Source of the DNA: a virus
Lineage: Duplodnaviria > Heunggongvirae > Uroviricota > Caudoviricetes
Reading direction: 5' to 3' (one strand)
DNA length: 64,000 bases
Virus record (IMG/VR): IMGVR_UViG_3300050821_002507
Below the pieces are notes generated by a model that was not told the origin of the DNA, did not search any database, and saw only the letters and a program-made list of their open reading frames with translations. Positions 9,316 through 20,722 of this stretch are shown here, piece by piece; position 1 is the stretch's first letter; each line of letters opens with the position of its first letter. A program made the translations under genes and the position numbers.

Positions 9316-9322
9316 CGTGTCC

Positions 9323-12922: not shown

Positions 12923-12960
12923 GAGGAATATCGCGAGGGATAATCGGGCCGTATGGATGA

Positions 12961-13034
12961 TGGCGAAAGTGGAAGGTGTCGAACCCTCGTTTTCGGTTTT
13001 GGAGACCGACGTTCTACCGTTGAACTACACTCCC
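12961..13034 (-). tRNA. tRNA-Trp (anticodon CCA)
   Basis: Manual cloverleaf: GGGAGTG acceptor, D-arm GTTC/AACGGTA/GAAC, anticodon loop CTCCAAA, T-arm GAGGG-TTCGACA-CCTTC, CCA encoded. Confidence 0.7.
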
Positions 13035-13035
13035 G

Positions 13036-13107
13036 TACAGACGGGTGGAGTCGAGCCACAACTTGCGCGCGGTTCACAGCCGGCGCCCCAAGCCCTTGGT
13101 CGTCTGC
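13036..13107 (-). tRNA. tRNA-like element, degenerate (possible His GTG anticodon in an extended bulged stem; abnormal D region)
   Basis: 7-bp acceptor GCAGACG/CGTCTGT, T-arm GTGG-CTCGACT-CCAC, loop CTGTGAA with GTG. The D-arm collapses to the CCAAGGGCTTGG palindrome. It lies between tRNA-Met and tRNA-Trp. Confidence 0.3.
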
Positions 13108-13111
13108 GTAT

Positions 13112-13190
13112 TGGTAGCGGTGGCTGGCTACGATCCAGCGTTCTCCGGTTTATGGGACCGGCGCTTTAGTCCAAGCTAAGCTACACCGCC
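13112..13190 (-). tRNA. tRNA-Met (anticodon CAT) with an unusual T-loop ATCGTAG
   Basis: GGCGGTG acceptor, D-arm GCTT/AAGC, anticodon stem CCGGT/ACCGG with loop CCCATAA, T-arm GCTGG-ATCGTAG-CCAGC, CCA encoded. Confidence 0.6.
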
Positions 13191-13267
13191 ATATTGGCAA
13201 CGGGCGTTGAAAGTCGAATCAACATCCTAAGTTTCAAAGACTTAGTACCTGACCACAGGAACCCGCC

Positions 13268-13510
13268 ATGAGTCGAATTGTCGTATGGAACGAGCCGCTC
13301 TGTCTTGATGAGGGCCATGTGTTAAATTCTGTAGTACGAGCAACCGAGGAAGATATTGTTCACTTGATGCAGCATAATTTCCCAGAAAGAGCTTATTCTT
13401 ACGACGACGCGCTGGACGACTTTATGGTAGTCCATTGGGCGTGGTTTGAGGAAGTGGTGCCTCCTGACGGTACCGCCACGCTCACTACGGAACAGCGCCG
13501 TGAGAAGTGA
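13268..13510 (+). CDS. hypothetical protein
   Basis: 80-aa ORF, ACAGGAACC upstream. Acidic and Trp-rich. Confidence 0.45.
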   Translation: MSRIVVWNEPLCLDEGHVLNSVVRATEEDIVHLMQHNFPERAYSYDDALDDFMVVHWAWFEEVVPPDGTATLTTEQRREK

Positions 13511-13529
13511 ATTAAACCGCGAAACGGTA

Positions 13530-13607
13530 TGGAGCCGCCAGCGGGAATCCAACCCGCGATGTTCGGGAGTGAAGGTCCCGCACCCTTGGCACCCAGGCGA
13601 TGGCGGC
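13530..13607 (-). tRNA. tRNA-Glu-like (anticodon TTC) with C at position 33 and an extra nucleotide between the D and anticodon stems
   Basis: Perfect acceptor GCCGCCA/TGGCGGC, T-arm GCGGG-TTGGATT-CCCGC, anticodon stem CGGGA/TCCCG with loop CCTTCAC, CCA encoded. 78 nt. Confidence 0.45.
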
Positions 13608-13683
13608 AGATTTAGGCCCTTGACTTTCTTAACCGTATAGCATATTTCCCGTTTAGCCAATTCCGGCCATACAGGATTATGCT

Positions 13684-14436
13684 ATGACCAAAAAGACCAA
13701 AACCGCTGAAAATACGCTTGTTACCTTCTTGCTCGACCGCTCCGGATCAATGGGTTCGTGCCGCGAATCAACCATCGAGGCGTTCAACGGCTATATCGAA
13801 TCCCTCCGCACGGCGCCGGTCTCATTCACCTTCCTCCAGTTTGATTCGGAGTCGCTGGATAAGGTCCATTTCGAGAAGCCCATCAAAGATGTCCCGGACC
13901 TCAGCATGGCGACCTACCAGCCACGGGGCGGAACCCCCCTGATCGAGGCGGCAACCAAGACCATCCAGGCGCTCGAAACCGCCCTCAAGGCCAAGACCGA
14001 GAAGCCGAAGGTCGTCGTCTGCATTCAGACTGACGGCGAGGAGAACCAAAGCGGCCGAGAATATACGTGGCAGGCGCTTAAGGATCTCATCGCAGCCAAG
14101 ACCGCCGAAGGCTGGCAGTTCAACTTCATGGGCGCCGGCATCGACGCTTACGACCAAGGATCGAAGATGGGCATCTCGGCGGCGGCAACCATGAGCTACG
14201 ATAGCACCGACAAAGTTGCGACTCGTGCTGCTTTCGCCGCCAGCGGTCACAATACGATGTTGTACGCATCGGGATTTGCTGCATCAACGGATTATTCCGC
14301 ATTGCAGAAAATGGCTTCGGGCGACAAGTTCGATCCCAACCTCAAGATACCCACTCTCAAGCCGGTGAAGGTGTCTTCTTCGGTGAAGCTTGACCTTGGC
14401 GGCAAGAAGTCTAGCGGGCTCGACCTGACACAGTGA
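13684..14436 (+). CDS. von Willebrand factor type A (vWA) domain protein
   Basis: MIDAS residues DRSGSM, GGT and TDGEEN. ATG preceded by AGGATTATGCT. Confidence 0.7.
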   Translation: MTKKTKTAENTLVTFLLDRSGSMGSCRESTIEAFNGYIESLRTAPVSFTFLQFDSESLDKVHFEKPIKDVPDLSMATYQPRGGTPLIEAATKTIQALETALKAKTEKPKVVVCIQTDGEENQSGREYTWQALKDLIAAKTAEGWQFNFMGAGIDAYDQGSKMGISAAATMSYDSTDKVATRAAFAASGHNTMLYASGFAASTDYSALQKMASGDKFDPNLKIPTLKPVKVSSSVKLDLGGKKSSGLDLTQ

Positions 14437-14702
14437 CCAGACGCGACCGCTACGACTCTGAGTTCGGTGCCTCGGTGAGCCAAGCGCTTGCCGAGGCAAA
14501 GATCAATCAGGCCGAACTCGCCGTGCGATCCGGAATGTCGCCGTCATACCTCAATCAGACCATGACCGGGAGAAAGCATATCCCAACCAAGTGGATCGAC
14601 GTTGTTGCGGAATCTCTCGGTCTACAAGATGCACAGCGAAAGCGGCTGCACCTCGCCGCCGCAAAGGATGCCGGGTACGATATCGACTTGACGAAGGAAT
14701 GA
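14433..14702 (+). CDS. XRE-family HTH DNA-binding protein
   Basis: INQAELAVRSGMSPSYLNQTMTGRK is a classic HTH_XRE. GTG start overlapping the vWA gene stop. Confidence 0.6.
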   Translation: MTRRDRYDSEFGASVSQALAEAKINQAELAVRSGMSPSYLNQTMTGRKHIPTKWIDVVAESLGLQDAQRKRLHLAAAKDAGYDIDLTKE

Positions 14703-14776
14703 TGGAGCGGAGTGAGAGAATCAGACTCTCGTCTTTGGTTTGGAAGACCACTGCTCTGTCATTGAGCTAACCCCGC
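14703..14776 (-). tRNA. tRNA-Gly (anticodon TCC), non-canonical D-loop (AATGACA) and T-loop (TCTGATT)
   Basis: Acceptor GCGGGGT/ACTCCGC, anticodon loop CTTCCAA, T-arm GAGAG-TCTGATT-CTCTC, CCA encoded. Confidence 0.55.
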
Positions 14777-14777
14777 G

Positions 14778-14865
14778 TGGCGGAAGCAGGAGGATTTGAA
14801 CCTCCGGTACCGTTAGGTACTTCGGTTTAGCAAACCGATGCAATAGGCCACTCTGCCATGCTTCC
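14778..14865 (-). tRNA. tRNA-Ser (anticodon GCT), class II
   Basis: GGAAGCA/TGCTTCC acceptor, 3-bp D-stem, loop TTGCTAA, long variable hairpin GTACC..GGTAC, T-arm GGAGG-TTCAAAT-CCTCC, CCA encoded. Confidence 0.8.
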
Positions 14866-14870
14866 GTTAG

Positions 14871-14947
14871 TGGCGATCCCGGCAAGACTCTAACTTGCGA
14901 CAACCGGTTTAGGAAACCAGTGCTCTATACATCTGAGCTACGGGACC
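14871..14947 (-). tRNA. tRNA-Arg (anticodon CCT)
   Basis: Acceptor GGTCCCG/CGGGATC, anticodon loop TTCCTAA, T-arm GCAAG-TTAGAGT-CTTGC (A56), D-loop lacks GG. CCA encoded. Confidence 0.6.
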
Positions 14948-14952
14948 GTGAT

Positions 14953-15028
14953 TGGAGACCCAGGCGTGAATCGAACACGCGACCTCTTGCTTAGAAGGCA
15001 AAGACTCTTTCCACTGAGTTACTGGGCC
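14953..15028 (-). tRNA. tRNA-Arg (anticodon TCT)
   Basis: Canonical: GGCCCAG acceptor, D-arm ACTC/AGTGGAAA/GAGT, loop CTTCTAA, T-arm GCGTG-TTCGATT-CACGC, CCA encoded. Confidence 0.8.
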
Positions 15029-15029
15029 G

Positions 15030-15278
15030 TTACCAAAAGTAGTTATGCGGCTTCTTGCTAACCGGCCAAGTCGCGTTGTCCGCGTCGATCTTGCCCAGCA
15101 AAACCGCTCTAGTCGTCTCCATGGCGCGGCGACGATGCGGTCTACGGTGAAACACGATGTCCCACCACGCAGGCCAGTTGTTCAGCCAGCGATACTCGTT
15201 GCCAAACTCTTTTGCACGCCATTTGTCGAAGCGATTGCCGCGCACTCTCGTCCGCGACCGCTTGCGTTTGTGGTTCAT
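15030..15278 (-). CDS. hypothetical basic Trp-rich protein embedded in the tRNA array
   Basis: 82 aa, MNHKRKRSRTRVRGNRFDKWRAKEFGNEYRWLNNWPAWWD. Its stop abuts the tRNA-Arg 5' end. AAGGTG close to the ATG. Confidence 0.35.
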   Translation of the reverse strand: MNHKRKRSRTRVRGNRFDKWRAKEFGNEYRWLNNWPAWWDIVFHRRPHRRRAMETTRAVLLGKIDADNATWPVSKKPHNYFW

Positions 15279-15334
15279 GACACCTTAGCTCCATGTTGGT
15301 CACTAACGTGTCATGGTCGGATCCTTTCAAGGGT

Positions 15335-15410
15335 TGGAGTAGCAGGCCGGTGCCTACCCGGCTCAATAGCGGTTTTGCAGACCGCCGCGTTCACGTTTCG
15401 CCACTGCTAC
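15335..15410 (-). tRNA. tRNA-Cys-like (anticodon GCA) with a non-canonical T-loop (GTAGGCA) and a D-loop lacking GG
   Basis: Perfect 7-bp acceptor GTAGCAG/CTGCTAC, canonical anticodon arm GCGGT-CTGCAAA-ACCGC, T-stem GCCGG/CCGGC, CCA encoded. 76 nt. Confidence 0.45.
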
Positions 15411-15540
15411 GTTAAGGCTCGGCCAAGGGTCCCTTCGGTCTTTTCCCCGGCTGGGGTAAAGCACTAGGCGTTTCCGGTTTCCCTATGCGCGCCACGCCAC
15501 GGCGCCGGCTCTGCCTGGGTGGTTGATAGCATATCGTGAA
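15411..15540 (-). other. GC-rich structured non-coding segment of unknown function inside the tRNA array
   Basis: Multiple hairpins (CCCCAGCCGGGG, GGCGCCGTGGCGTGGCGCGC). No ORF and no tRNA fold found. Lies between tRNA-Gln and the tRNA-Cys-like gene. Confidence 0.3.
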
Positions 15541-15616
15541 TGGCAGGGGAAGAGAGGATCGAACTCCCGACATCGGCGTCCAGAGCGCCGCGCTACTACC
15601 GCTGAGCTATTCCCCA
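15541..15616 (-). tRNA. tRNA-Gln (anticodon CTG)
   Basis: Acceptor TGGGGAA/TTCCCCT (U1-U72 terminal mismatch), D-arm GCTC/AGCGGTAG, anticodon stem CGGCG/CGCCG with loop CTCTGGA, T-arm GGGAG-TTCGATC-CTCTC, CCA encoded. Confidence 0.65.
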
Positions 15617-15623
15617 TCAAAGA

Positions 15624-15698
15624 TGGTCGGGGCACGGCGATTCGAACGCCGGACCTCACGCTTCCAAAGCGCGAACTCTACCGCTGAGCTATACCCCG
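15624..15698 (-). tRNA. tRNA-Pro (anticodon TGG)
   Basis: Canonical: CGGGGTA acceptor, D-arm GCTC/AGCGGTA/GAGT, loop TTTGGAA, T-arm CGGCG-TTCGAAT-CGCCG, CCA encoded. Confidence 0.8.
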
Positions 15699-15834
15699 TT
15701 GATTCCGTCTAAATTATGTGAGACACTAACCGCGTCCAAATCTCTATCTCAAACGCAAGGAGTACACGCCCCAAAAACGCACCGCAAGTCCTAGTCAGGG
15801 CGGCCGGGCGCGAACCACGTCCGGCCGCAATAAT

Positions 15835-15852
15835 GTGGCGATCCCGGCAAGA
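15835..15852 (+). repeat. 18-nt direct repeat of the 3' end of tRNA-Arg(CCT) (gtggcgatcccggcaaga); first copy at 14869..14886
   Basis: Exact 18-mer present twice about 950 bp apart. The second copy is not part of a tRNA fold. Confidence 0.6.
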
Positions 15853-15863
15853 GGGCTACCGAA

Positions 15864-16055
15864 ATGAGCAACAAGATTACTACCGGACCAGAAATTGCGT
15901 TGGCGCTTGCGATGCGGGCTGGACTGGAAGGCGTTGCCTTCTCCCAGGTGTCTATGGGACACTGGACCCCAGAGTTTTATGCAGAGAGATGTCGCGTCAT
16001 TAAGGATAAATGGCGACCCACCGAGGAATCGAACCCCGAACCATCAGATTCGTAG
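15864..16055 (+). CDS. small ORF of doubtful validity (its 3' end overlaps tRNA-Arg(ACG) on the opposite strand)
   Basis: 63-aa ORF with an AAGAGGG RBS. 45-nt overlap with the tRNA at 16011..16087. Confidence 0.2.
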   Translation: MSNKITTGPEIALALAMRAGLEGVAFSQVSMGHWTPEFYAERCRVIKDKWRPTEESNPEPSDS

Positions 16056-16087
16056 TCTGGCGCTCTGTCCATTTGAGCTAGTGGGCC
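16011..16087 (-). tRNA. tRNA-Arg (anticodon ACG)
   Basis: Canonical: GGCCCAC acceptor, D-arm GCTC/AAATGGACA/GAGC, loop CTACGAA, T-arm CGGGG-TTCGATT-CCTCG, CCA encoded. Confidence 0.8.
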
Positions 16088-16091
16088 GTAA

Positions 16092-16169: not shown

Positions 16170-16176
16170 GTAAATG

Positions 16177-16260
16177 CTGAAGGGGCAGGATTCGAACCTG
16201 CGACGGGCTTTCGCCAACTGATTAACAATCAGACCCCTGCTACCGCTCGGGTACCCTCCA
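16177..16260 (-). tRNA. class II-type tRNA (long variable arm with a GAAA tetraloop), anticodon ambiguous (GTT in the best register)
   Basis: Acceptor TGGAGGG/CCCTTCA, 3-bp D-stem, palindromic anticodon region CTGATTGTTAATCAG, T-arm GCAGG-TTCGAAT-CCTGC. CCA not encoded. Confidence 0.45.
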
Positions 16261-16269
16261 TCGCATTTG

Positions 16270-16792: not shown

Positions 16793-16989
16793 GGGGTTAT
16801 ATACTCGCTTTTTGTGACGGTTGCAAGACGCGAAATGGTGCCTCGGCGCCGTTTCGAGCGGCGATCTTCCGTGCTTCAAACGGACGTGTGGAACCACCAT
16901 CACCACCGAGGCGAGCAGCATCCCGGTAACGATCCGGGTCCTACACGTTGGCAACGTGTCGTGCTACCTTTAGCACCAATGCTGCATAT

Positions 16990-17073
16990 TGGTCGGCAAC
17001 CCGCGAATCGAACGCGGCATGTCAAAGACGCAGGTTTTACAGACCCGCTCAGTCACCAGACTTGGCGTTGCCG
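16990..17073 (-). tRNA. tRNA-Tyr (anticodon GTA), class II, compact shifted D-arm
   Basis: Perfect acceptor CGGCAAC/GTTGCCG, anticodon stem GCGGGT/ACCTGC with loop CTGTAAA, variable hairpin GTC-TTTG-GAC, T-arm CCGCG-TTCGATT-CGCGG, CCA encoded. Confidence 0.55.
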
Positions 17074-17273: not shown

Positions 17274-17546
17274 TCATTCTGGCCACACTCCTAATCCCAT
17301 GTCCTGAAGCCCTTGAAGTAACTCGGCCTCGGTCATGTAAGATGGCGGTGAAGTGTGGGCCTGATCCACATGCCTTTGCGGGGCACCAGCGGGTTTCGAA
17401 TCCGTGTCAGGGGCCTCCCTGATTACTTCACCAATCTCTCCTTGGCAGCAATAATCAAATCTATGGCCGCCGCAGGTAAGGCAGGGAAGGACCGCGCCGT
17501 TTAGGCGCAGCATAGTCCCCATGCCATGGCATGTTTCGCAAATCAT
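17274..17546 (-). CDS. Cys-rich small protein (zinc-ribbon-like)
   Basis: CETCHGMG...CLTCGG...CC pairs of CxxC. Overlaps the upstream HNH gene by 4 nt. Confidence 0.45.
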   Translation of the reverse strand: MICETCHGMGTMLRLNGAVLPCLTCGGHRFDYCCQGEIGEVIREAPDTDSKPAGAPQRHVDQAHTSPPSYMTEAELLQGLQDMGLGVWPE

Positions 17547-18034
17547 GGGTTAACCCATCCCCAAATATTCCCACGCCGAATCAACGACACTGTAGCGTGA
17601 TGCACGCCAAATAATTCTGCTATTTCTGTATTCATCTTGCCGTCTTTAATTAGTGATTTGATGACAACAACTTGAGACTGGAGCAATTTGCTGCGTGGAT
17701 TTTTTTCTCCGTTCTGAAAACTATTATTCAAGCTTGCCCGACCCTTAGCATATGCTTCAAGTATATTGTCGCTACAGGTTCCCTCGCGCAGGTGCTCTGG
17801 ATTGATGCAAGGCGGATTATCGCATGAATGAAGAACCATAAGGCTAACATCATCGACAGAAATGCCGCGATTGACGGCGTAAGAAACTCTATGGGTCAAG
17901 TAGTCTTTCCCACCAAACTTTATCTTTCCGTAGCCGCTTTTGTTTCTACCTCCCGACCATTCCCAGCAGCCATTGGGAGCAATAGCGATCTTGGAGGCGA
18001 GATAGGTTCTGAGGTCTTTAATCTTTCTTGGCAT
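17543..18034 (-). CDS. HNH homing endonuclease (HNH_3/AP2-like) with a C-terminal HTH
   Basis: CWEWSGGRNKSGYGKI...HRVSY...HSCDNPPCINPEHL, and IAELFGVHHATVSLIRRG as the HTH. Confidence 0.7.
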   Translation of the reverse strand: MPRKIKDLRTYLASKIAIAPNGCWEWSGGRNKSGYGKIKFGGKDYLTHRVSYAVNRGISVDDVSLMVLHSCDNPPCINPEHLREGTCSDNILEAYAKGRASLNNSFQNGEKNPRSKLLQSQVVVIKSLIKDGKMNTEIAELFGVHHATVSLIRRGNIWGWVNP

Positions 18035-18050
18035 GAAACCTCATATTATC

Positions 18051-18138
18051 TGGCGGAACCGAGGTGATTCGAACACCTGATACCTTGCGGTATGCCGCCT
18101 TTCCAGGGCGGTGCCTTCAGCCTCTCGGCCACGGTTCC
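18051..18138 (-). tRNA. tRNA-Ser (anticodon GGA), class II
   Basis: GGAACCG/CGGTTCC acceptor, D-arm GCC/GAGAGGCTGAA/GGC, anticodon stem CCGCC/GGCGG with loop CTGGAAA, variable hairpin CATACCGCAAGGTATC, T-arm AGGTG-TTCGAAT-CACCT, CCA encoded. Confidence 0.8.
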
Positions 18139-18177
18139 TTTGATTCGCAGAGTATCAGTTTGTGCCTCGCAGTCAAG

Positions 18178-18261
18178 TGGCGGAGAGCGATGGAGTCGAG
18201 CCATCAACCTTGCGGTTGGCCTGGGTTTCAGGTCCAGTTCGCGCCCCGCGCGCCGCTCTCC
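18178..18261 (-). tRNA. tRNA-Ser-like paralogue with a GC-rich aberrant D region and an ambiguous anticodon loop (TGA in one register); T-loop CTCGACT
   Basis: Perfect acceptor GGAGAGC/GCTCTCC, variable arm AACCGCAAGGTT (as in the Ser(GGA) gene), T-arm GATGG-CTCGACT-CCATC, CCA encoded. Confidence 0.35.
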
Positions 18262-18265
18262 CTAT

Positions 18266-18340
18266 TGGCGACCTCCGCAGGATTCGAACCTGCATCCTCA
18301 AGATTCGGAATCTTGTGCTCATCCATTGAGCTAGGAGGCC
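18266..18340 (-). tRNA. tRNA-Arg (anticodon CCG)
   Basis: Canonical: GGCCTCC acceptor, D-arm GCTC/AATGGAT/GAGC, anticodon stem CAAGA/TCTTG with loop TTCCGAA, T-arm GCAGG-TTCGAAT-CCTGC, CCA encoded. Confidence 0.8.
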
Positions 18341-18582
18341 TTTGACTGAGAGCGACCCAGCGGCGCTTTTTGTGGTACGCCGCATTCCGTGTTGACGGTA
18401 ACCAACACCCAGCGCAATGCTGTCCCCCTGATCCAGCCACGAACCTCTACTTCTAATCTCTTCTCAGCTTCGCATCTCGTCTCTGGCAACGGTGGCTCAA
18501 AATCAGTGCGGACCCATTCAGAGTCGGTGTGTGAATTGCGATATTCGTACTCGAAATGTCTTCCGGCGATCTCGCGCATATG

Positions 18583-18960
18583 CTATGCTCCGTGCTGCTC
18601 GAAAAATCGTGATCTGAACGGCTGGTCCGCCCTAGTAGCCCGATTCGGATAGTATGCACCCATTCCCGATGTCCAGGCAATCAAACTGTCGTCAGCCAGG
18701 ATGACTTTGTCCATTGCCCGCGTCATAGCCAACGCAAGGTTGTAAGTGTCAGGACTGCACGGATTGATGTATAACACCCAGATGTCGATGGGGACCGTGA
18801 TCGGGATTTTGATCGCTGCCGCCTTAAAGGCCTCCACAAGCGCCTCCCGGTACTTCTGGATGACCTTATAATGCTGCCGGTAGTGCGGAGCCCCATGGAT
18901 GTATAACCGAAGCCTGGGCAACGGCTCGTCGGATGGATGGTATTCTGCGATGATGCGCAT
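18583..18960 (-). CDS. RusA-like Holliday junction resolvase
   Basis: PDTYNLALAMTRAMDKVILADDSLI parallels the RusA segment DLDNLQKAAFDAL...WLDDAQV. Size 125 aa. Confidence 0.55.
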   Translation of the reverse strand: MRIIAEYHPSDEPLPRLRLYIHGAPHYRQHYKVIQKYREALVEAFKAAAIKIPITVPIDIWVLYINPCSPDTYNLALAMTRAMDKVILADDSLIAWTSGMGAYYPNRATRADQPFRSRFFEQHGA

Positions 18961-18980
18961 GGTCGTATCCTATCATGGGG

Positions 18981-19070
18981 TGGTCGGCGCTACGTGGATC
19001 GAACACGTCCGTCTACGGTAATCAGCCGCTCCGGGTTTATAAGGCCCAGCCGCACCCAGTGCTAGCGCCG
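18981..19070 (-). tRNA. 90-nt tRNA-like element with a 22-nt variable region, 3-nt D-loop and a 9-nt or mismatched anticodon loop (CCTTATAAA)
   Basis: Perfect acceptor CGGCGCT/AGCGCCG, T-arm ACGTG-TTCGATC-CACGT, CCA encoded. The body is not a standard cloverleaf. Confidence 0.3.
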
Positions 19071-19097
19071 CTCTGAAAAACGTGATACCAATATTAG

Positions 19098-19493
19098 ATG
19101 CACAACCAAGAAAATGACGACTGGTTTTTGGCCGCAGTCTCTAGCGGTCACATTTCAGTATCCGAAGATGGGAAAGTTTTTAACCACAAGACCAATAGAT
19201 ACATTGGCGCAGTTGGCAGCGGTAGATATCCAAAAATTTCTCTCTCTGTTGGGCGAAAAGAAATTCGCCATATGCAAATACACCGTCTAGTGTGGTTGGT
19301 TTATCGTGGTAAAATTTCACAAGAAGTTGAAATTAACCATAAGGATACCAACACCAACAATCCATCTCTGCTAAACCTTGAATTAATTACCCCTAGCGGC
19401 AATAGATTGCACGCTATTGCAAACGGCCGTCCCGGATATCTTTTCCAAAAAGGAAACAAATCATCACGCAAAACGAAAGTCATTGACAAATAA
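19098..19493 (+). CDS. HNH homing endonuclease in an AT-rich island
   Basis: YPKISL...IHRLVWLVYRG...EINHKDTNTNNPSLLNLELIT (HNH_3). Confidence 0.65.
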   Translation: MHNQENDDWFLAAVSSGHISVSEDGKVFNHKTNRYIGAVGSGRYPKISLSVGRKEIRHMQIHRLVWLVYRGKISQEVEINHKDTNTNNPSLLNLELITPSGNRLHAIANGRPGYLFQKGNKSSRKTKVIDK

Positions 19494-19497
19494 AAAG

Positions 19498-19574
19498 TGG
19501 TCGGCGCGGCAGGCTTCGATCCTGCGACAACCCGGCTCCGGACCGGGGACTCTACCAGACTGAGCTACGCGCCG
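19498..19574 (-). tRNA. tRNA-Pro (anticodon CGG) with C33 and T-loop ATCGAAG
   Basis: Perfect acceptor CGGCGCG/CGCGCCG, D-arm GCTC/AGTCTGGTA/GAGT, anticodon stem CCCGG/CCGGG with loop TCCGGAG, CCA encoded. Confidence 0.55.
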
Positions 19575-19578
19575 TAAG

Positions 19579-19652
19579 TGGCGGTCCTAGGGGGTATCGA
19601 TCCCCCGTCGATCGGTTGACAACCGAGTACTCTACCTTTGAGCTATAGGACC
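19579..19652 (-). tRNA. tRNA-Asp (anticodon GTC)
   Basis: Acceptor GGTCCTA/TAGGACC, D-arm GCTC/AAAGGTA/GAGT, anticodon loop TTGTCAA, T-arm GGGGG-ATCGATA-CCCCC, CCA encoded. Confidence 0.65.
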
Positions 19653-19653
19653 G

Positions 19654-19732
19654 TATGGCCGGGGAGAATCGAACTCCCATGGTTTCCCACGGCGACCTCA
19701 ACGCCGCGCGTCTGCCGTTCCGCCACAGCCAC
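19654..19732 (-). tRNA. tRNA-Leu (anticodon GAG), class II; CCA not encoded
   Basis: Acceptor GTGGCTG/CGGCCAT (two G-U pairs), D-arm GCG/GAACGGCAGA/CGC, anticodon stem CGGCG/CGCCG with loop TTGAGGT, variable TGG-GAAA-CCA, T-arm GGGAG-TTCGATT-CTCCC. Confidence 0.6.
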
Positions 19733-19740
19733 GTAAAACT

Positions 19741-19815
19741 TGGAGGGTGCTAGGTGAATCGAACACCTGACAAGAGGGTTAAGAAGCCTCTGTTCTTCCA
19801 CTGAACTAAGCACCC
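19741..19815 (-). tRNA. tRNA-Lys (anticodon CTT)
   Basis: Acceptor GGGTGCT/AGCACCC, D-arm GTTC/AGTGGAA/GAAC, anticodon loop TTCTTAA, T-arm AGGTG-TTCGATT-CACCT, CCA encoded. Confidence 0.75.
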
Positions 19816-19948
19816 GAGGATTCCGGAAGTTCTGCCCTTCTTGCGACGCGGGTTAAAAAGCCGGCCCAGAGACTACTCTGATTTACGCTCGGAATCCGAA
19901 TGGACCCCGAACCGTTTAAGTGGATCGCTCATGTTGTTTACTCCATAT

Positions 19949-20023
19949 TGGTGCAAGCGGGAGGTACTGCCCCTCCTATCAGACGCTCATCAGGCGCCGT
20001 CTTCGCTTCTCAGACTCGCTTGC
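19949..20023 (-). tRNA. tRNA-Ile-like (anticodon GAT) with a non-canonical T-loop (GGCAGTA) and a D-loop lacking GG
   Basis: Perfect acceptor GCAAGCG/CGCTTGC, anticodon stem GGCGC/GCGTC with loop CTGATGA, T-stem GGAGG/CCTCC, CCA encoded. Confidence 0.4.
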
Positions 20024-20076
20024 GGTGAAATGGTGCTTCCGATACCTTGGAGAGGCATGACCTTCGCCATGTCGCG

Positions 20077-20149
20077 GCGACGGTGAGGGTCACGATCCCC
20101 CGACATCCTGCGTGTAAAACAGGCGCTCTCCCAACTGAGCTAACCGCCC
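20077..20149 (-). tRNA. tRNA-Val (anticodon TAC); G1-G72 terminal mismatch, CCA not encoded
   Basis: 5' half GGGCGGT-TA-GCTC-AGTTGGGA-GAGC is canonical. Anticodon loop TTTACAC, T-arm GGGGG-ATCGTGA-CCCTC. Confidence 0.55.
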
Positions 20150-20155
20150 ATGAAG

Positions 20156-20233
20156 TGGTGCCGCAGGCGGGTGACGATCACGCGCGGAACCGTTTTTAGG
20201 ACGGATCCCTCTGCCAACCTGGGGTACTGCGGC
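20156..20233 (-). tRNA. class I-sized tRNA with anticodon loop CCTAAAA (anticodon TAA, Leu UUA/UUG) and C33
   Basis: Perfect acceptor GCCGCAG/CTGCGGC, D-arm CCCC/AGGTTGGCAGA/GGG, T-arm GCGTG-ATCGTCA-CCCGC (one mismatch), CCA encoded. Confidence 0.45.
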
Positions 20234-20237
20234 GTAT

Positions 20238-20315
20238 TGGTGCCCAACCGGGAGATCGAATCCCGACACACCGGATTTTGAATCCAGTCGCTTTGCCTGT
20301 TTTGCGTAGTTGGGC
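20238..20315 (-). tRNA. tRNA-Leu (anticodon CAA) with a short variable loop (class I-like)
   Basis: Perfect acceptor GCCCAAC/GTTGGGC, anticodon stem CTGGA/TCCGG with loop TTCAAAA, variable TGTGT, T-arm CGGGA-TTCGATC-TCCCG, CCA encoded. Confidence 0.6.
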
Positions 20316-20320
20316 GTGAG

Positions 20321-20398
20321 TGGTAGCCGACCCCGGTCTCGAACCGGGACTGGACGGAGTCTGGATCCGTTCCCTCTTCCAAATTGGGGTAGTCGGCC
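20321..20398 (-). tRNA. tRNA-Leu (anticodon CAG), class I-like, with C33
   Basis: Acceptor GGCCGAC/GTCGGCT, D-arm CCCC/AATTTGGAAGA/GGG, anticodon stem ACGGA/TCCGT with loop TCCAGAC, T-arm CCCGG-TTCGAGA-CCGGG, CCA encoded. Confidence 0.5.
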
Positions 20399-20404
20399 GT
20401 TGAA

Positions 20405-20477
20405 TGGTGCCACCAGCAGGTTCGAATCTGCATCCCCCTCATTACCAGTGAAGGACTCTACTTTGAGCTATGGCGGC
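20405..20477 (-). tRNA. tRNA-Thr (anticodon GGT)
   Basis: Acceptor GCCGCCA/TGGTGGC, D-arm GCTC/GAGT, anticodon stem CTTCA/TGAGG with loop CTGGTAA, T-arm GCAG-ATTCGAAC-CTGC, CCA encoded. Confidence 0.65.
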
Positions 20478-20482
20478 AAACT

Positions 20483-20557
20483 TGGTTCCGAGTAGACGAA
20501 TCGAACGCCTGCACCCAGTTTACAAAACTGGACCTCTGCCACTGAGGATAACCCGGA
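20483..20557 (-). tRNA. tRNA-Thr (anticodon TGT)
   Basis: Acceptor TCCGGGT/ACTCGGA, anticodon stem CCAGT/ACTGG with loop TTTGTAA, T-arm AGGCG-TTCGATT-CGTCT, CCA encoded. Confidence 0.65.
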
Positions 20558-20648
20558 TCAAAGAGTCTTCGCGGGGCGGGGCACGACTGCCGCTGTTTTT
20601 CTCGCTGGGCGAAACGTGGCTTGGGGCGCGTGGCGACCCACCGCGAAT

Positions 20649-20722
20649 TGGAGCCATCAGGTTGATTTGAACAACCATTGCCACCGTACGAAGGGGGTCT
20701 CCTACCATTGGAGGATGACGGC
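20649..20722 (-). tRNA. tRNA-Thr (anticodon CGT)
   Basis: Acceptor GCCGTCA/TGATGGC, D-arm CTCC/AATGGTA/GGAG, anticodon loop TTCGTAC, T-arm GGTTG-TTCAAAT-CAACC, CCA encoded. Confidence 0.7.

What the first reader, a model, noticed from the sequence alone, without database searches (positions are those of the whole stretch)
12961..20722. About 32 tRNA or tRNA-like genes on one strand, a near-complete decoding set interleaved with protein genes
Manual folding finds cloverleaves for Trp, Met, Glu x2, Gly, Ser x3, Arg x4, Cys, Gln, Pro x2, Tyr, Asp, Leu x4, Lys, Ile, Val and Thr x3, plus several degenerate elements. All are on the minus strand, in five blocks. Arrays of this size are characteristic of very large phages and imply heavy investment in translation autonomy.
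Basis: seen in the sequence. Interest (0 to 1): 0.6.

Follow-up and report, generated by a model that had tools for sequence, protein, structure and literature searches.

The report
Phage array of 34 tRNA genes
This is a real, tightly packed block of 34 transfer-RNA genes (plus one decayed copy) in an uncultured phage that probably infects alphaproteobacteria, followed by Y-RNA genes and a Ro60 RNA-binding protein gene. Such cargo is well known in large phages, so it is a new example and not a new phenomenon.

Summary
ARAGORN finds 28 tRNAs at exactly 12961-20722, all on the minus strand. It finds none elsewhere in the window and none in shuffles. Rfam's tRNA model passes 23. A covariance model built only from related metagenomic arrays recovers all 33 ARAGORN candidates and adds a missed tRNA-Ile(GAU). 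That gives 34 genes plus a degenerate His-like relic, at 4.4 tRNAs per kb, covering 19 amino acids; 30 of 34 encode CCA.

The interleaved genes are two HNH homing endonucleases, a conserved RusA-like gene, a VWA gene and small ORFs. Directly downstream on the same strand lie three Y RNAs (one a tRNA-like YrlA), a mini Y hairpin and Ro60.

The tRNA order is syntenic with arrays on five or more metagenomic contigs. One is a 100-kb contig with homologous helicase and primase. GcrA, Ro60 affinities and the alphaproteobacterial (no G-1) type of tRNA-His point to an alphaproteobacterial host.

The same tRNA array plus Ro60 plus HNH layout is already annotated in actinobacteriophages such as Gordonia phage Sixama. 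Verdict: a new member of a known kind. Unusual details are Leu tRNAs without the long variable arm, sporadic C33 and conserved odd T loops. "Translation autonomy" is overstated.

The parts
20649..20722 (-). tRNA-Thr(CGU), first gene of the array
   Evidence: ARAGORN 107.2; Rfam RF00005 47.2 bits; lineage model R1 55.0 bits; CCA encoded
20483..20557 (-). tRNA-Thr(UGU)
   Evidence: ARAGORN 106.0; Rfam 47.2; R1 51.8
20405..20477 (-). tRNA-Thr(GGU)
   Evidence: ARAGORN 105.6; Rfam 52.2; R1 47.2
20321..20398 (-). tRNA-Leu(CAG), short (5-nt) variable loop, C33, A73
   Evidence: ARAGORN 110.7; no Rfam hit; R1 57.6; structure
20238..20315 (-). tRNA-Leu(CAA), short (4-nt) variable loop, A73
   Evidence: ARAGORN 109.5; Rfam 47.4; R1 52.4
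20156..20233 (-). tRNA-Leu(UAA), short (4-nt) variable loop, C33, A73
   Evidence: ARAGORN 102.3; no Rfam hit; R1 48.4
20076..20149 (-). tRNA-Val(UAC), no encoded CCA
   Evidence: ARAGORN 109.5; Rfam 44.2; R1 46.5
19949..20023 (-). tRNA-Ile(GAU), missed by ARAGORN and Rfam; deviant D and T loops; CCA encoded
   Evidence: R1 40.5 bits, anticodon loop CUGAUGA; same position as Ile-GAU in L008 and L009
19741..19815 (-). tRNA-Lys(CUU)
   Evidence: ARAGORN 114.9; Rfam 58.1; R1 70.7
19653..19732 (-). tRNA-Leu(GAG), 10-nt variable region, no CCA
   Evidence: ARAGORN 121.9; Rfam 46.0; R1 26.4; 80 nt as in L009
19579..19652 (-). tRNA-Asp(GUC)
   Evidence: ARAGORN 105.6; Rfam 62.2; R1 70.7; T loop AUCGAUA identical in L009
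19498..19574 (-). tRNA-Pro(CGG), C33
   Evidence: ARAGORN 110.1; Rfam 48.1; R1 58.4
19098..19493 (+). HNH homing endonuclease gene (131 aa), opposite strand, inserted in the array
   Evidence: Pfam HNH_3 33.6 bits, above the 24.8 cut-off; phrog_59 E=6e-22; no counterpart at this site in L007, L008 or L009
18981..19070 (-). Atypical 90-nt tRNA-like element with anticodon loop CUUAUAA (Ile-UAU), long variable arm, weak D arm, CCA; function uncertain
   Evidence: ARAGORN 102.1 in the relaxed run only (structure); no Rfam hit; R1 23.8. Sits where L007, L008 and L009 have a normal tRNA(CAU) just before the RusA-like gene, but does not align with it
18583..18960 (-). Conserved 125-aa gene embedded in the array, RusA-like by a source's name
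   Evidence: 40-48% identical to genes at the same array position in L008 and L007. The 92% homologue P0121 is named 'Holliday junction resolvase RusA-like endonuclease' by JGI. No Pfam, PHROG or PDB sequence hit
18331..18579 (-). Small ORF (82 aa), unknown
   Evidence: ORF list; no family hit
18266..18340 (-). tRNA-Arg(CCG)
   Evidence: ARAGORN 119.7; Rfam 66.0; R1 78.1
18178..18261 (-). tRNA-Ser(UGA), class II, C33, G73
   Evidence: ARAGORN 96.5 (relaxed); Rfam tRNA-Sec model 32.6 bits, below its cut-off; R1 23.8; syntenic with Ser-UGA of L008 and L009
18051..18138 (-). tRNA-Ser(GGA), class II
   Evidence: ARAGORN 119.1; Rfam 54.8; R1 36.8
17543..18034 (-). HNH homing endonuclease gene (163 aa) with C-terminal HTH
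   Evidence: phrog_6254 E=1e-26; Pfam HNH_3 and zf-His_Me_endon below cut-off
17274..17546 (-). Small ORF (90 aa), unknown, overlaps the HNH stop by 4 nt
   Evidence: no family hit
16990..17073 (-). tRNA-Tyr(GUA), class II with 12-nt variable region
   Evidence: ARAGORN 107.7; Rfam tRNA-Sec model 34.5 bits, below cut-off; R1 22.4; 84 nt as in L007 and L008
16913..16985 (-). tRNA-Gly(GCC), no CCA, abuts the next tRNA
   Evidence: ARAGORN 108.6; Rfam 49.4; R1 48.9
16836..16912 (-). tRNA-Phe(GAA), T loop CUCGAAA
   Evidence: ARAGORN 101.2; no Rfam hit; R1 49.1; the same odd T loop occurs in L007 and L009
16270..16342 (-). tRNA-Ala(UGC), G3:U70, A73, shortened D arm
   Evidence: ARAGORN 100.5 (structure); Rfam only mascRNA (a tRNA-like family) at 26.8 bits; R1 24.0
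16176..16260 (-). tRNA-Asn(GUU), 85 nt, with an ~11-nt insertion forming an extra variable arm; no CCA
   Evidence: ARAGORN 115.0; Rfam 48.7; R1 26.3. Shares U1, A72, G73 and the lack of CCA with the 74-75-nt Asn tRNAs of L009 and L007
16092..16169 (-). tRNA-Glu(CUC), C33, T loop AUCGUAG
   Evidence: ARAGORN 103.7; no Rfam hit; R1 46.1
16011..16087 (-). tRNA-Arg(ACG)
   Evidence: ARAGORN 119.7; Rfam 55.2; R1 67.9
15624..15698 (-). tRNA-Pro(UGG)
   Evidence: ARAGORN 124.1; Rfam 61.0; R1 67.4
15541..15616 (-). tRNA-Gln(CUG)
   Evidence: ARAGORN 112.5; Rfam 48.8; R1 55.9
15335..15410 (-). tRNA-Cys(GCA), T loop GUAGGCA
   Evidence: ARAGORN 97.7 (relaxed); R1 48.8; same acceptor stem as L003 Cys; similar odd T loop in L009 (GUCAGCA)
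15030..15278 (-). Small ORF (82 aa), unknown
   Evidence: no family hit
14953..15028 (-). tRNA-Arg(UCU)
   Evidence: ARAGORN 114.7; Rfam 62.0; R1 65.1
14871..14947 (-). tRNA-Arg(CCU)
   Evidence: ARAGORN 112.5; Rfam 58.3; R1 60.1; T loop UUAGAGU identical in L009
14778..14865 (-). tRNA-Ser(GCU), class II
   Evidence: ARAGORN 120.4; Rfam 59.6; R1 38.8
14703..14776 (-). tRNA-Gly(UCC)
   Evidence: Rfam 57.8 bits; ARAGORN 97.0 (relaxed only); R1 59.6
13684..14436 (+). VWA-domain protein gene (250 aa), opposite strand; specific to this window
   Evidence: Pfam VWA 25.1 bits, above the 23.8 cut-off; phrog_7371 E=6e-41; the 254-aa gene (15884-16648) beyond the array in L009 is not homologous to it
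14433..14702 (+). Small ORF (89 aa) after the VWA gene, unknown, not scanned
   Evidence: ORF list
13530..13607 (-). tRNA-Glu(UUC), C33
   Evidence: ARAGORN 108.0; Rfam 38.2; R1 44.6
13268..13510 (+). Small ORF (80 aa), unknown, not scanned
   Evidence: ORF list
13195..13267 (-). tRNA-Gln(UUG), weakest candidate (8-nt T loop, short D arm)
   Evidence: ARAGORN 90.9, which is the score range of false positives elsewhere in the window. Support comes from R1 27.7 bits, encoded CCA, 4-nt spacing to the next tRNA, and the syntenic order Glu-UUC, Gln-UUG, His, Trp in L007 and L008
13112..13190 (-). tRNA-Met(CAU), elongator-like, C33, T loop AUCGUAG
   Evidence: ARAGORN 112.9; Rfam 52.2; R1 60.1
13035..13111 (-). 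Degenerate tRNA-His-like element: loop CUGUGAA, G1:U72, A73, T arm present, aberrant anticodon stem, no CCA
   Evidence: R1 only 11.2 bits; no ARAGORN or Rfam hit. Aligns with tRNA-His of L007, L008 and L003 at the syntenic position before Trp
12961..13034 (-). tRNA-Trp(CCA), last gene of the array
   Evidence: ARAGORN 113.0; Rfam 63.5; R1 74.4
12894..12922 (-). Promoter-like TTGCAA-17 nt-TATACA, 10 nt upstream of the first Y RNA (inferred)
   Evidence: Read from the sequence; conserved as TTGCAT-17-TATGTC in L002, which has no array upstream. Not listed by the consensus scan
12818..12883 (-). Y RNA-like gene a (no tRNA-like domain)
   Evidence: Closing helix GCCCGAGC/GUUCGGGC; fold -25.8 kcal/mol, z=-2.6; conserved in L002
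12720..12807 (-). Y RNA-like gene b
   Evidence: Closing helix GGGCCGAGC/GUUCGGCUC; fold -37.1 kcal/mol, z=-2.2; conserved in L002
12563..12716 (-). YrlA-type Y RNA with tRNA-like domain (T arm and D arm at 12602-12664)
   Evidence: Rfam RF02553 30.7 bits, E=2e-4, below the gathering score of 69. Fold shows the basal Ro-binding stem plus the tRNA-like domain. 9 of 32 pairs covary across the window, L002 and L003
12526..12560 (-). Mini hairpin: remnant of a fourth Y RNA that is full length in L002
   Evidence: Alignment shows an 80-nt deletion relative to L002; fold z=-3.1
10932..12512 (-). Ro60/Rsr gene (526 aa from the ATG at 12512, after an AGGAG ribosome-binding site)
   Evidence: Pfam TROVE 144 bits and vWA_Ro60 221 bits; phrog_850; 93% identical to P0001

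Best explanation
What it is. The region is a phage-borne tRNA gene array: 34 tRNA genes and one decayed His copy in 7.8 kb, all on the minus strand. It lies between the replication genes (helicase, primase) and a Y-RNA/Ro60 module. The phage is uncultured and its host is most likely an alphaproteobacterium.

Shown here:
- The genes fold as cloverleaves.
- Most pass general tRNA models, and all pass a model built from relatives alone.
- Their order is inherited: it is syntenic with arrays on several metagenomic contigs.
- Isoacceptor-specific oddities are conserved between relatives.
- 30 of 34 encode their own CCA end.

Inferred mechanism:
- The array is transcribed as polycistronic precursors, cut by host RNase P and 3' nucleases, and charged by host synthetases. 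The tRNAs carry host-type identity marks: A73 on Leu, G73 on Ser, G3:U70 with A73 on Ala, and the G1:U72/A73 no-G-1 type of tRNA-His seen in relatives.
- The mature tRNAs give the phage a nearly complete private tRNA pool. This pool keeps late protein synthesis going when host tRNAs are limiting, either because the host rarely uses A/U-ending codons or because host tRNAs are depleted or cleaved during infection, for example by tRNA-targeting defence nucleases.
- The divergent anticodon loops, T loops and variable arms may make these tRNAs poor substrates for such nucleases.

Other elements:
- The two HNH genes are selfish homing-endonuclease insertions.
- The RusA-like gene is a conserved passenger.
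- The Y RNAs and Ro60 downstream form a separate RNA-surveillance module, probably with its own promoter. It often travels with such arrays.
For: Reality of the genes:
- 28 ARAGORN default calls, against 0 elsewhere in the window and 0 in shuffles.
- 23 pass the Rfam gathering score.
- An independent lineage model recovers 34 at 22-78 bits, against 13 bits for the best background hit.

Inheritance and selection:
- The tRNA order matches L007, L008 and L009 almost gene for gene.
- Acceptor stems differ between orthologues through compensatory changes.
- Unusual T loops of Cys, Phe, Arg-CCU and Asp are shared with L009, even though its proteins are only 51-64% identical.

Phage context:
- Virion, tail and ejection genes, primase, helicase, SSB and Erf.

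Alphaproteobacterial host:
- GcrA.
- The nearest named Ro60 homologues are from Bradyrhizobium and Roseibium.
- Structural gene relatives are phages of Caulobacter, Roseobacter, Ochrobactrum and Sinorhizobium.
- The His tRNAs of relatives, and the relic here, have G1:U72 and A73, the identity set of the alphaproteobacterial group lacking G-1 (PMC3064791).

Decoding set:
- The set covers rare and common phage codons alike, including UUA, AUA, AGA, AGG and GUA. This fits a general back-up pool.

Precedent:
- Gordonia phage Sixama has a Ro-like protein next to about 30 tRNAs with HNH genes.
- 369 phage records encode Ro60 homologues.
- The literature covers phage tRNAs as counter-defence (PMC10264068) and YrlA in phages (PMC4201824).
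Against: - There are no expression, processing or charging data.
- 11 of 34 fail Rfam's general tRNA model. 7 have C33 in place of the near-universal U33, and this is not conserved by isoacceptor in L009, so some may be decaying.
- Ile-GAU, Ile-UAU, Gln-UUG and Ala-UGC have weak D or T arms.
- His is represented only by a degenerate copy. AAA, CUA and some GUY, GCC and CCC codons are uncovered, so the set is not self-sufficient.
- The promoter and terminator scan shows nothing above chance in the region, so the transcription units are unknown.
- The host is unknown, so codon compensation and defence evasion cannot be told apart. No tRNA-targeting defence is known for this host.
- E. coli LeuRS does not charge a natural type I tRNA-Leu (PMC6614811), so charging of the three short Leu tRNAs is not assured.
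Confidence: 0.78

Rival explanations
1. Pure codon compensation. The phage (GC 55%, GC3 0.58) infects a host with higher GC. It carries tRNAs only to boost decoding of the A/U-ending codons that it uses more than the host does. No link to host defences or tRNA depletion.
For: The array includes U34 tRNAs for nearly every A-ending codon (UUA, AUA, GUA, UCA, CCA, ACA, GCA, CAA, GAA, AGA, GGA). Window GC is 0.50-0.59, below that of many alphaproteobacteria (my own knowledge). This is the classical explanation (cited in PMC5966550).
Against: The set also holds C34 and G34 tRNAs for the G/C-ending codons that any GC-rich host decodes well: CUG, CCG, ACG, CGG, GAG, CAG, AAG, GGC. It lacks Lys-UUU, which would read AAA. 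A nearly full set is more than compensation needs. Host codon usage is not available, so this was not tested directly.
Confidence: 0.3
2. Mostly decaying cargo. The array was acquired once and is now eroding. Many members are pseudogenes with no role, and the low covariance scores reflect decay.
For: 11 of 34 fail Rfam RF00005. C33 occurs in 7 tRNAs and is sporadic across relatives. There is one clear His relic and one truncated Y RNA. Ile-GAU has lost the canonical D-loop GG and the canonical T loop.
Against: The Rfam-negative Leu, Phe, Cys and Glu tRNAs score 46-58 bits with the model built from relatives. Their odd T loops are conserved by isoacceptor in L009. Stems keep pairing through compensatory changes. 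30 of 34 retain CCA. Order and content persist across relatives whose Ro60 is only about 62% identical.
Confidence: 0.07
3. Not a phage feature. The segment is a bacterial chromosomal or plasmid 'tRNA array unit', and the phage genes nearby belong to an adjacent prophage.
For: tRNA array units occur on chromosomes and plasmids (PMC5966550). The related array in L003 is flanked by bacterial-looking genes (DUF1501, DUF1800, amidohydrolase).
Against: In the window the array lies between phage replication genes (primase at 21534-22511, helicase) and further phage-type genes (exonuclease, HNH). Tail and virion genes lie 25 kb away on the same strand. L009 keeps the same order of replication genes then array on a 100-kb contig. 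No bacterial housekeeping gene was found in 64 kb.
Confidence: 0.03
4. Recoding or mistranslation device. Some atypical members (the 85-nt Asn-GUU with G3:U70 and a long arm, the 90-nt UAU element, the short Leu tRNAs) are charged with a non-cognate amino acid, or are used to poison host translation.
For: The class swaps are real. Synthetases for Ser, Leu and Ala ignore the anticodon (my own knowledge). Class II tRNAs with non-Leu/Ser anticodons that are charged with Leu are known in nematodes (PMC3333845, abstract listed).
Against: The long-arm Asn tRNA is an orthologue of ordinary 74-75-nt Asn tRNAs. It keeps their U1, A72 and G73, and it has the GUU anticodon that AsnRS reads. The Leu tRNAs keep A73 and the Leu-type D arm. 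G:U pairs at 3:70 also occur in Trp, so they look incidental. No stop-codon suppressor is present.
Confidence: 0.03

Closest known systems
tRNA arrays next to a Ro-like protein gene in actinobacteriophages (Gordonia phage Sixama MN484601; also most of the 369 Ro60-encoding phage records, mainly Mycobacterium and Streptomyces phages)
   Same: About 30 co-oriented tRNA genes at high density, HNH endonuclease genes interspersed, a Ro60 homologue immediately adjacent, replication genes on the other side, and Leu tRNAs without the long variable arm.
   Different: Ro60 is only 47% identical. There is no nucleotide similarity. In Sixama Ro60 lies upstream of the array; here it lies downstream. The host phylum differs (Actinobacteria versus probably Alphaproteobacteria). 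Only 4 of 27 Sixama tRNAs encode CCA against 30 of 34 here, and no Sixama tRNA has C33.
tRNA array units as defined by Tran et al. 2016 and surveyed by Morgado and Vicente 2018 (PMC5966550)
   Same: Meets the definition (at least 20 tRNA genes, at least 2 per kb): 34 genes at 4.4 per kb. Mycobacteriophage arrays have 21-29 genes at about 4-6 per kb.
   Different: Those surveys cover Firmicutes, Mycobacterium and their phages and plasmids. This array comes from an unrelated, uncultured lineage and has more genes than the mycobacteriophage arrays they list.
Bacterial and phage Rsr(Ro60)-YrlA modules (Chen et al. 2014, PMC4201824)
   Same: A TROVE plus vWA Ro60 gene with Y RNAs encoded directly upstream on the same strand. 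One of them carries a tRNA-like T arm and D arm on a long basal stem. That paper reports YrlA in 22 bacteriophages.
   Different: The YrlA here scores only 30.7 bits against Rfam's gathering score of 69. Three to four Y RNAs sit in tandem, and the related L003 has eight. No rtcBA repair genes accompany them, unlike in the Salmonella operon.
T4/T5-type phage tRNA clusters with homing endonucleases (e.g. SegB in the T4/T6 tRNA region; PMC13096335, abstract only)
   Same: Clustered phage tRNA genes interrupted by free-standing homing endonuclease genes. A counter-defence role has been proposed or shown for phage tRNAs.
   Different: The endonucleases here are HNH, not GIY-YIG. The array is far larger than T4's eight tRNAs (my own knowledge). 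No experimental link to any defence exists here.
Type I tRNA-Leu of Streptomyces coelicolor (PMC6614811)
   Same: A tRNA-Leu with a short variable loop coexisting with a bacterial LeuRS. That paper states that almost all bacterial tRNA-Leu are type II.
   Different: Here every array-encoded Leu isoacceptor is short, and the tRNAs are phage-encoded for a probable alphaproteobacterial host. Charging is untested, and E. coli LeuRS could not charge the Streptomyces type I tRNA.

Membership tests
tRNA (Rfam RF00005 / cloverleaf tRNA genes) | Cloverleaf with 7-bp acceptor stem, D arm, 5-bp anticodon stem with 7-nt loop, and T arm, detected by a dedicated tRNA finder | tested here: met
   ARAGORN default finds 28; the relaxed run finds 33 on the minus strand, with 0 default false positives in 55.5 kb and in 20 shuffles.
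tRNA (Rfam RF00005 / cloverleaf tRNA genes) | Score at or above the curated gathering score (29 bits) of the general covariance model | tested here: inconclusive
   Met by 23 of 34 (38-66 bits). Not met by 11. Three of these hit only the related tRNA-Sec model below its cut-off, and one hits mascRNA. All 34 score 22-78 bits with a model built from relatives' tRNAs.
tRNA (Rfam RF00005 / cloverleaf tRNA genes) | Near-universal U33 and a T54-psi55-C56 type T loop | tested here: inconclusive
   U33 in 27 of 34 and C33 in 7. The T-loop 54/58 pair is T/A in 22 of the 33 ARAGORN candidates, swapped to A/T in 5, and other in 5. The swapped form also occurs in L007 and L008.
tRNA (Rfam RF00005 / cloverleaf tRNA genes) | Expressed, processed, modified and aminoacylated | not testable with these tools
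   Needs tRNA-seq or charging assays.
[quoted passage not shown] 2016 definition) | At least 20 tRNA genes at a density of at least 2 per kb | tested here: met
   34 genes in 7,762 bp is 4.4 per kb. Even the 28 default ARAGORN calls give 3.6 per kb. The definition is quoted in PMC5966550.
Phage-encoded tRNA cluster | Located in a phage genome | tested here: met
   Virion, tail, ejection and replication genes lie in the same 64 kb. The backbone relative L009 is on a 100-kb contig. Terminase, portal and capsid genes lie outside the window and were not seen.
Rsr(Ro60)-Y RNA module | Ro60 orthologue with TROVE and vWA domains | tested here: met
   Pfam TROVE 144 bits and vWA_Ro60 221 bits, both far above their cut-offs.
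Rsr(Ro60)-Y RNA module | YrlA-type RNA within 4 kb of Ro60 that reaches the family score | tested here: inconclusive
   RF02553 hit at 12602-12664, 50 nt upstream of Ro60. It scores only 30.7 bits against a gathering score of 69 and covers only the tRNA-like part, model positions 24-84. A second weak hit (14919-14987) spans two tandem tRNAs, the false-positive type described in PMC4201824.
Rsr(Ro60)-Y RNA module | Long basal stem formed by the 5' and 3' ends, with a conserved Ro-binding helix plus a tRNA-like T and D arm domain | tested here: met
   The fold shows this architecture. The CGAGC/GUUCG core is invariant. The flanking pairs and the middle hairpin covary across the window, L002 and L003: 9 of 32 pairs have double changes.
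Rsr(Ro60)-Y RNA module | Y RNA bound by Ro60 and tethering it to PNPase | not testable with these tools
   Needs immunoprecipitation.
HNH homing endonuclease | HNH catalytic motif, in a free-standing gene inserted between conserved genes | tested here: met
   19098-19493: Pfam HNH_3 33.6 bits, above 24.8. 17543-18034: PHROG HNH families with E down to 1e-26, Pfam below cut-off. Both are absent from the same sites in L007, L008 and L009. Cleavage and homing were not tested.
RusA Holliday junction resolvase | Match to the RusA family profile | tested here: not met
   No Pfam, PHROG or PDB sequence hit, for the protein or for a 3-sequence profile. The only support is JGI's name for a 92% identical protein, plus a DD..I-type motif noted by eye. 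It is therefore called 'RusA-like by source name' only.

The most novel reading that the evidence does not exclude
The array may be the hallmark of an undescribed lineage of roughly 100-kb alphaproteobacterial phages that has vertically maintained a private tRNA set of more than 30 genes. In this reading the tRNA architecture has been systematically remodelled:
- every Leu isoacceptor has lost the long variable arm;
- Asn (here) and Lys (in L003 and L009) have gained one;
- T loops carry swapped A54:U58 pairs;
- U33 is repeatedly replaced by C.

The tRNAs would stay chargeable by host synthetases, as suggested by the no-G-1 type tRNA-His, while becoming invisible to host nucleases that recognise canonical tRNA shape, anticodon loops or variable loops. 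The recurrent physical linkage with tandem tRNA-mimicking Y RNAs and Ro60 would then be functional. Possible roles are quality control of these aberrant tRNAs, or Y RNAs acting as decoys for tRNA-targeting enzymes.
Probability: 0.2. Interest if true: 0.65.

Novelty: new member of a known kind. Interest (0 to 1): 0.35.

Why it matters
Large phage tRNA arrays, their homing endonucleases and their frequent Ro60/Y-RNA neighbours are already documented. The basic finding therefore adds an example, not a concept.

Its value is as material:
- It extends the array-plus-Ro60 arrangement from actinobacteriophages to an uncultured lineage that probably infects alphaproteobacteria. No deposited phage genome is a close relative.
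- It provides a syntenic series of arrays (this window, L007, L008, L009 and L003). In such a series one can see which non-canonical tRNA features are kept by selection.
- The short-arm Leu tRNAs, the long-arm Asn and Lys tRNAs and the recurrent C33 are concrete, testable candidates for the idea that phage tRNAs are shaped to escape tRNA-cleaving defences while staying substrates of host synthetases.
- The host-type tRNA-His signature shows how identity elements in phage tRNAs can be used to predict hosts.

Tried and rejected
- **Nucleotide searches.** The array (9 kb megablast, then 581 nt blastn) found nothing in 50,697 phage records.
- **Pattern-based searches for close relatives.** Ro60 and primase in IMG/VR, and Ro60 in JGI metagenome contigs and GTDB genomes, gave nothing. 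An exact look-up of the helicase also failed. Relatives were reached only through the protein database.
- **Structural-gene relative.** The closest phage by structural genes (MW202675) has no tRNA in its first 50 kb, so the array does not come with the tail module.
- **Promoter and terminator scan.** No enrichment over shuffles. Transcription units remain unknown.
- **Intron-allowing and very relaxed ARAGORN runs.** These gave only implausible calls with kilobase-long introns, so they were discarded.
- **Second Rfam YrlA hit (14919-14987).** It spans the T arm of one tRNA and the D arm of the next. This is the artefact described by Chen et al., so it was rejected.
- **Orthology of window tRNAs to L003.** Pairwise identity was mostly ambiguous at 60-78%. 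Synteny with L007, L008 and L009 was far more informative.
- **Long-arm Asn tRNA as a Ser- or Ala-type mischarging tRNA.** Rejected as the main reading once it aligned as an orthologue of normal Asn tRNAs.
- **C33 as a conserved adaptive feature.** Not supported, because it affects different isoacceptors in L009.
- **The UAU element as a C34-to-U34 derivative of the neighbouring CAU tRNA of relatives.** The sequences do not align.
- **L008 helicase and the 254-aa gene beyond the array in L009.** These are not homologous to the window's helicase and VWA genes.
- **RusA-like gene.** No sequence-level family hit. Structure prediction was not run.

Full report
**Observation.**
- ARAGORN at default settings reports 28 tRNA genes in the 64-kb window.
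- The result is far beyond chance. The same program finds nothing in the remaining 55.5 kb on either strand and nothing in 20 dinucleotide-preserving shuffles of the region.
- Rfam's general tRNA model (RF00005, gathering score 29 bits) matches 23 loci at 38-66 bits. Only 18 appear when the whole window is searched with the standard filters. One match, Gly-UCC at 14703-14776 (57.8 bits), was missed by default ARAGORN.
- Lowering ARAGORN's threshold adds Gly-UCC, Cys-GCA, Ser-UGA, Gln-UUG and a 90-nt element with a UAU anticodon.
- At that threshold, false positives outside the array all score 91.5 or less. Only Gln-UUG (90.9) is at noise level by score alone.

**Independent test of the divergent members.**
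- Ten ARAGORN candidates get no RF00005 hit even in small-region searches.
- I therefore built a covariance model from 52 class I tRNAs of two related metagenomic arrays (L007 and L008), using no window sequence. The alignment gives a clean cloverleaf in which all 21 pairs show compensatory changes.
- Searched without filters over 12000-22000, the model recovers all 33 candidates on the minus strand at 22.4-78.1 bits. The best hit that is not one of these candidates or the newly found Ile-GAU gene scores 13.4 bits.
- The Rfam-negative Leu-CAG, Leu-UAA, Phe, Cys and Glu-CUC score 46-58 bits.
- The model also finds a gene that both other tools missed: tRNA-Ile(GAU) at 19949-20023 (40.5 bits, loop CUGAUGA, ending ACCA). 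Its position matches Ile-GAU in L008 and L009.
- The 77-nt spacer between Met and Trp (13035-13111) scores only 11.2 bits. Even so, it has a CUGUGAA loop, a T arm, G1:U72 and A73, and it aligns with the tRNA-His genes that occupy this position in relatives. I read it as a degenerate His gene.
- The tally is 34 tRNA genes plus one relic in 7,762 bp, or 4.4 per kb. This is well inside the published definition of a tRNA array unit (at least 20 genes, at least 2 per kb; PMC5966550).

**Anatomy.**
- 30 of 34 encode the 3' CCA. The exceptions are Asn, Gly-GCC, Leu-GAG and Val.
- The anticodons cover 19 amino acids. With standard wobble the uncovered codons are His CAY, Lys AAA and Leu CUA, plus (unless U34 reads all four codons of a box) Val GUY, Ala GCC and Pro CCC.
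- Codon usage in 41 long ORFs is flat (GC3 0.58). The array serves rare codons (UUA, AUA, AGA, AGG, GUA) and common ones alike.
- Several features are unusual:
  - Leu-CAG, Leu-CAA and Leu-UAA have 4-5-nt variable loops, and Leu-GAG has a 10-nt one. All keep A73 and a Leu-type D arm (3-bp stem, large loop).
  - Asn-GUU is 85 nt long with an extra variable arm.
  - Seven tRNAs have C33.
  - Five have an A54/U58 swapped T loop.
- The long-arm Asn is an orthologue of ordinary 74-75-nt Asn tRNAs in relatives, sharing their U1, A72 and G73, with L009 and L007 also lacking an encoded CCA. It is therefore an insertion variant and not a different tRNA.

**Interleaved protein genes.**
- Two are HNH homing endonucleases: 19098-19493 on the plus strand, and 17543-18034 on the minus strand. 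Neither is present at the same site in relatives. L007 has a weak LAGLIDADG match at a different site.
- A 125-aa gene (18583-18960) is conserved at the same place in the arrays of L007 and L008 at 48% and 39-40% identity respectively. A 92% identical homologue is named 'RusA-like' by JGI. Profile searches give no family match.
- A VWA-domain gene (13684-14436, plus strand) is specific to this window.
- The remaining small ORFs have no matches.
- None of the ORFs scanned in the window encodes a synthetase, a CCA-adding enzyme, an RNA ligase or a peptidyl-tRNA hydrolase.

**Downstream of the array.**
- Immediately after tRNA-Trp, on the same strand, there is a promoter-like TTGCAA-17-TATACA (12922-12894).
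- It is followed by three Y-RNA-like genes (12883-12818, 12807-12720 and 12716-12563), a 35-nt hairpin (12560-12526) and a Ro60/Rsr gene (12512-10932; TROVE plus vWA_Ro60).
- The third RNA is a YrlA. Rfam RF02553 matches its tRNA-like T and D arms (30.7 bits, E=2e-4, below the gathering score). Its fold shows the long basal stem with the tRNA-like domain on top.
- All three RNAs close with the same CGAGC/GUUCG helix.
- A 4.5-kb metagenomic contig whose Ro60 is 93% identical (L002) has the same promoter-like element and the same three RNAs, with compensatory changes. It also has a full-length fourth Y RNA, of which the window retains only the hairpin.
- Across the window, L002 and L003, 9 of 32 predicted pairs covary.
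- L002 has no tRNA array upstream of these Y RNAs and Ro60 (ARAGORN finds none on the contig; Rfam gives one tRNA hit downstream of Ro60), and L009 has the array without Ro60 in the following 10 kb. The two modules are therefore separable.
- Phage-encoded Ro60 with YrlA is known (PMC4201824: 22 bacteriophages).

**Relatives and host.**
- No deposited phage is close. There is no nucleotide match. The best protein identities are 47% for Ro60, 38% for primase and 40% for a tail protein.
- The protein database gave relatives. L007 and L008 (Ro60 62-63% identical) carry arrays in nearly the same tRNA order as the window. The shared order runs from Thr-CGU, Thr-UGU, Thr-GGU, Leu, Leu, Leu, Val through to Glu-UUC, Gln-UUG, His, Trp. 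In L007 the array runs straight into Ro60; in L008 Ro60 sits inside it, with the last six tRNAs (Cys to Trp) after it.
- L003 (Ro60 63% identical) has more than 21 tRNAs and eight Y-like modules before Ro60.
- L009 is a 100,492-bp contig. Its helicase is 51% and its primase 64% identical to the window's. It keeps the same order (GcrA, SSB, DUF4326, helicase, methyltransferase, primase, array) and has at least 30 tRNA hits.
- An alphaproteobacterial host is inferred from four lines of evidence:
  - a GcrA homologue in the window;
  - the nearest named Ro60 homologues, from Bradyrhizobium and Roseibium;
  - structural similarity to phages of Caulobacter, Roseobacter, Ochrobactrum and Sinorhizobium;
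  - His tRNAs in L007 and L008, and the relic here, with G1:U72 and A73 and no G-1. This is the identity set of the alphaproteobacterial group whose HisRS has co-evolved (PMC3064791).

**Are the odd tRNAs functional?**
- Isoacceptor-specific peculiarities are shared between the window and L009 despite about 50-60% protein identity. Examples are Cys T loops GUAGGCA and GUCAGCA, Phe CUCGAAA and CUCGACA, Arg-CCU UUAGAGU in both, and Asp AUCGAUA in both. This argues for constraint and against decay.
- In contrast, C33 affects different isoacceptors in the two phages. It is either tolerated drift or recurrent selection, and I cannot tell which.
- Every Leu tRNA ARAGORN called in the window, L003, L007, L008, L009 and Gordonia phage Sixama is 80 nt or shorter. 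A biochemical paper states that almost all bacterial tRNA-Leu are type II, and that E. coli LeuRS cannot charge the natural type I tRNA-Leu of Streptomyces (PMC6614811). Two full-text searches brought up no paper discussing this feature for phages. That is not proof that it has gone unnoticed.

**Mechanism.**
- Shown: a conserved, inherited set of cloverleaf genes with host-type identity elements and encoded CCA, in a phage replication-gene neighbourhood.
- Inferred: transcription as precursors, processing and charging by host enzymes, and use as a private tRNA pool that sustains phage translation when host tRNAs are limiting or are destroyed.
- The near-complete set includes tRNAs for codons that any host reads well. 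This fits a back-up or counter-defence role (PMC10264068) better than codon compensation alone. Without the host genome the two cannot be separated.
- The HNH genes are best read as selfish insertions. A recent abstract links a homing endonuclease in the T4/T6 tRNA region to amplification of anti-defence loci (PMC13096335), but nothing here tests that.
- Ro60 and the Y RNAs probably act in structured-RNA surveillance, as in bacteria. Their repeated linkage with arrays in several phyla suggests, but does not show, a functional connection.

**Verdict.**
'Very large' and 'translation autonomy' are not supported.
- This is a new member of a known kind. Interest is modest (0.35). It is raised somewhat by the syntenic series of uncultured relatives, the systematic loss of the Leu variable arm and the tandem Y RNAs.

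Noticed in passing
window 30591-31061 (-), 28301-28873 (-), 27829-28287 (-): A GcrA cell-cycle regulator homologue (Pfam E=1e-29), an MT-A70 DNA methyltransferase and an SSB lie in the replication module. GcrA is typical of alphaproteobacteria and their phages and is a useful host clue.
   Followed up: partly
L003 7950-9960: Eight tandem Y-RNA-like modules (5' GAGCCCC[AG]G...TTCGGTTATC, 3' GATC..CGC...GCGTTCG) are interleaved with the last tRNAs upstream of Ro60. The contig's other genes look bacterial. I am not aware of a published Ro60 locus with this many Y RNAs.
   Followed up: partly
L003 6910-7120; L009 9563-9744 (also L011-L013): tRNA-Lys(UUU) and tRNA-Lys(CUU) of 86-93 nt with a long variable arm (class II shape). 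The window, L007 and L008 have ordinary 75-76-nt Lys tRNAs. This is the mirror image of the Leu tRNAs losing their arm.
   Followed up: partly
window, L007, L008, L009 T loops: A recurrent T-loop variant GGAUCGU..CC, in which position 54 is A and position 58 is U. This swaps the usual T54:A58 reverse-Hoogsteen pair. It occurs in 5 window tRNAs and 2-5 in each relative, but in none in Sixama or L003.
   Followed up: partly
L003 8822-8898: A tRNA with an 8-nt anticodon loop (anticodon called CCAA) lies at about the position where Trp-CCA sits in other arrays. It may be a Trp tRNA with an expanded loop or a frameshift-suppressor-like tRNA.
   Followed up: no
L006 11876-12492: Beside another Ro60 homologue (65% identical): a tRNA with a CUA (amber-reading) anticodon called tRNA-Pyl, a second tRNA with an 8-nt loop, and a PTH2 peptidyl-tRNA hydrolase gene.
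   Followed up: no
L004 765-1021, 2653-2929, 3036-4012: Three group I intron matches (76, 38 and 36 bits; only the first passes the gathering score) on a phage-like contig that also has YrlA, Ro60 and flanking tRNAs.
   Followed up: no
window 9317-10165 (+): A 282-aa ORF with an N-terminal resolvase-type HTH and a short match to the IS1 transposase DDE domain. It is a possible insertion-sequence remnant two genes downstream of Ro60 on the opposite strand.
   Followed up: no
window 7838-8215 (-), 27380-27820 (-): Two further HNH endonuclease genes lie outside the array, making four in 64 kb. The genome is heavily colonised by homing endonucleases.
   Followed up: no
window 46264-49365 (-): A 1033-aa virion-associated protein whose C-terminal 135 residues match the Pfam InPase (inorganic pyrophosphatase) domain at E=2e-46. 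It sits among DNA-ejection and internal-virion-type genes.
   Followed up: no
window 20738-20764 (-) and 16351-16382 (-): Two strong GC-rich hairpins (12 and 13 bp) followed by T-rich tails lie on the tRNA strand. One is 15 nt upstream of the first tRNA and one is just upstream of tRNA-Ala. They could be terminators or processing signals that split the array into transcription units.
   Followed up: no
window 12961-13034 and 16176-16260: Trp-CCA and the long-arm Asn-GUU both have a G3:U70 wobble pair, the main alanine identity element. It is probably incidental, but it could permit some mischarging by AlaRS.
   Followed up: no
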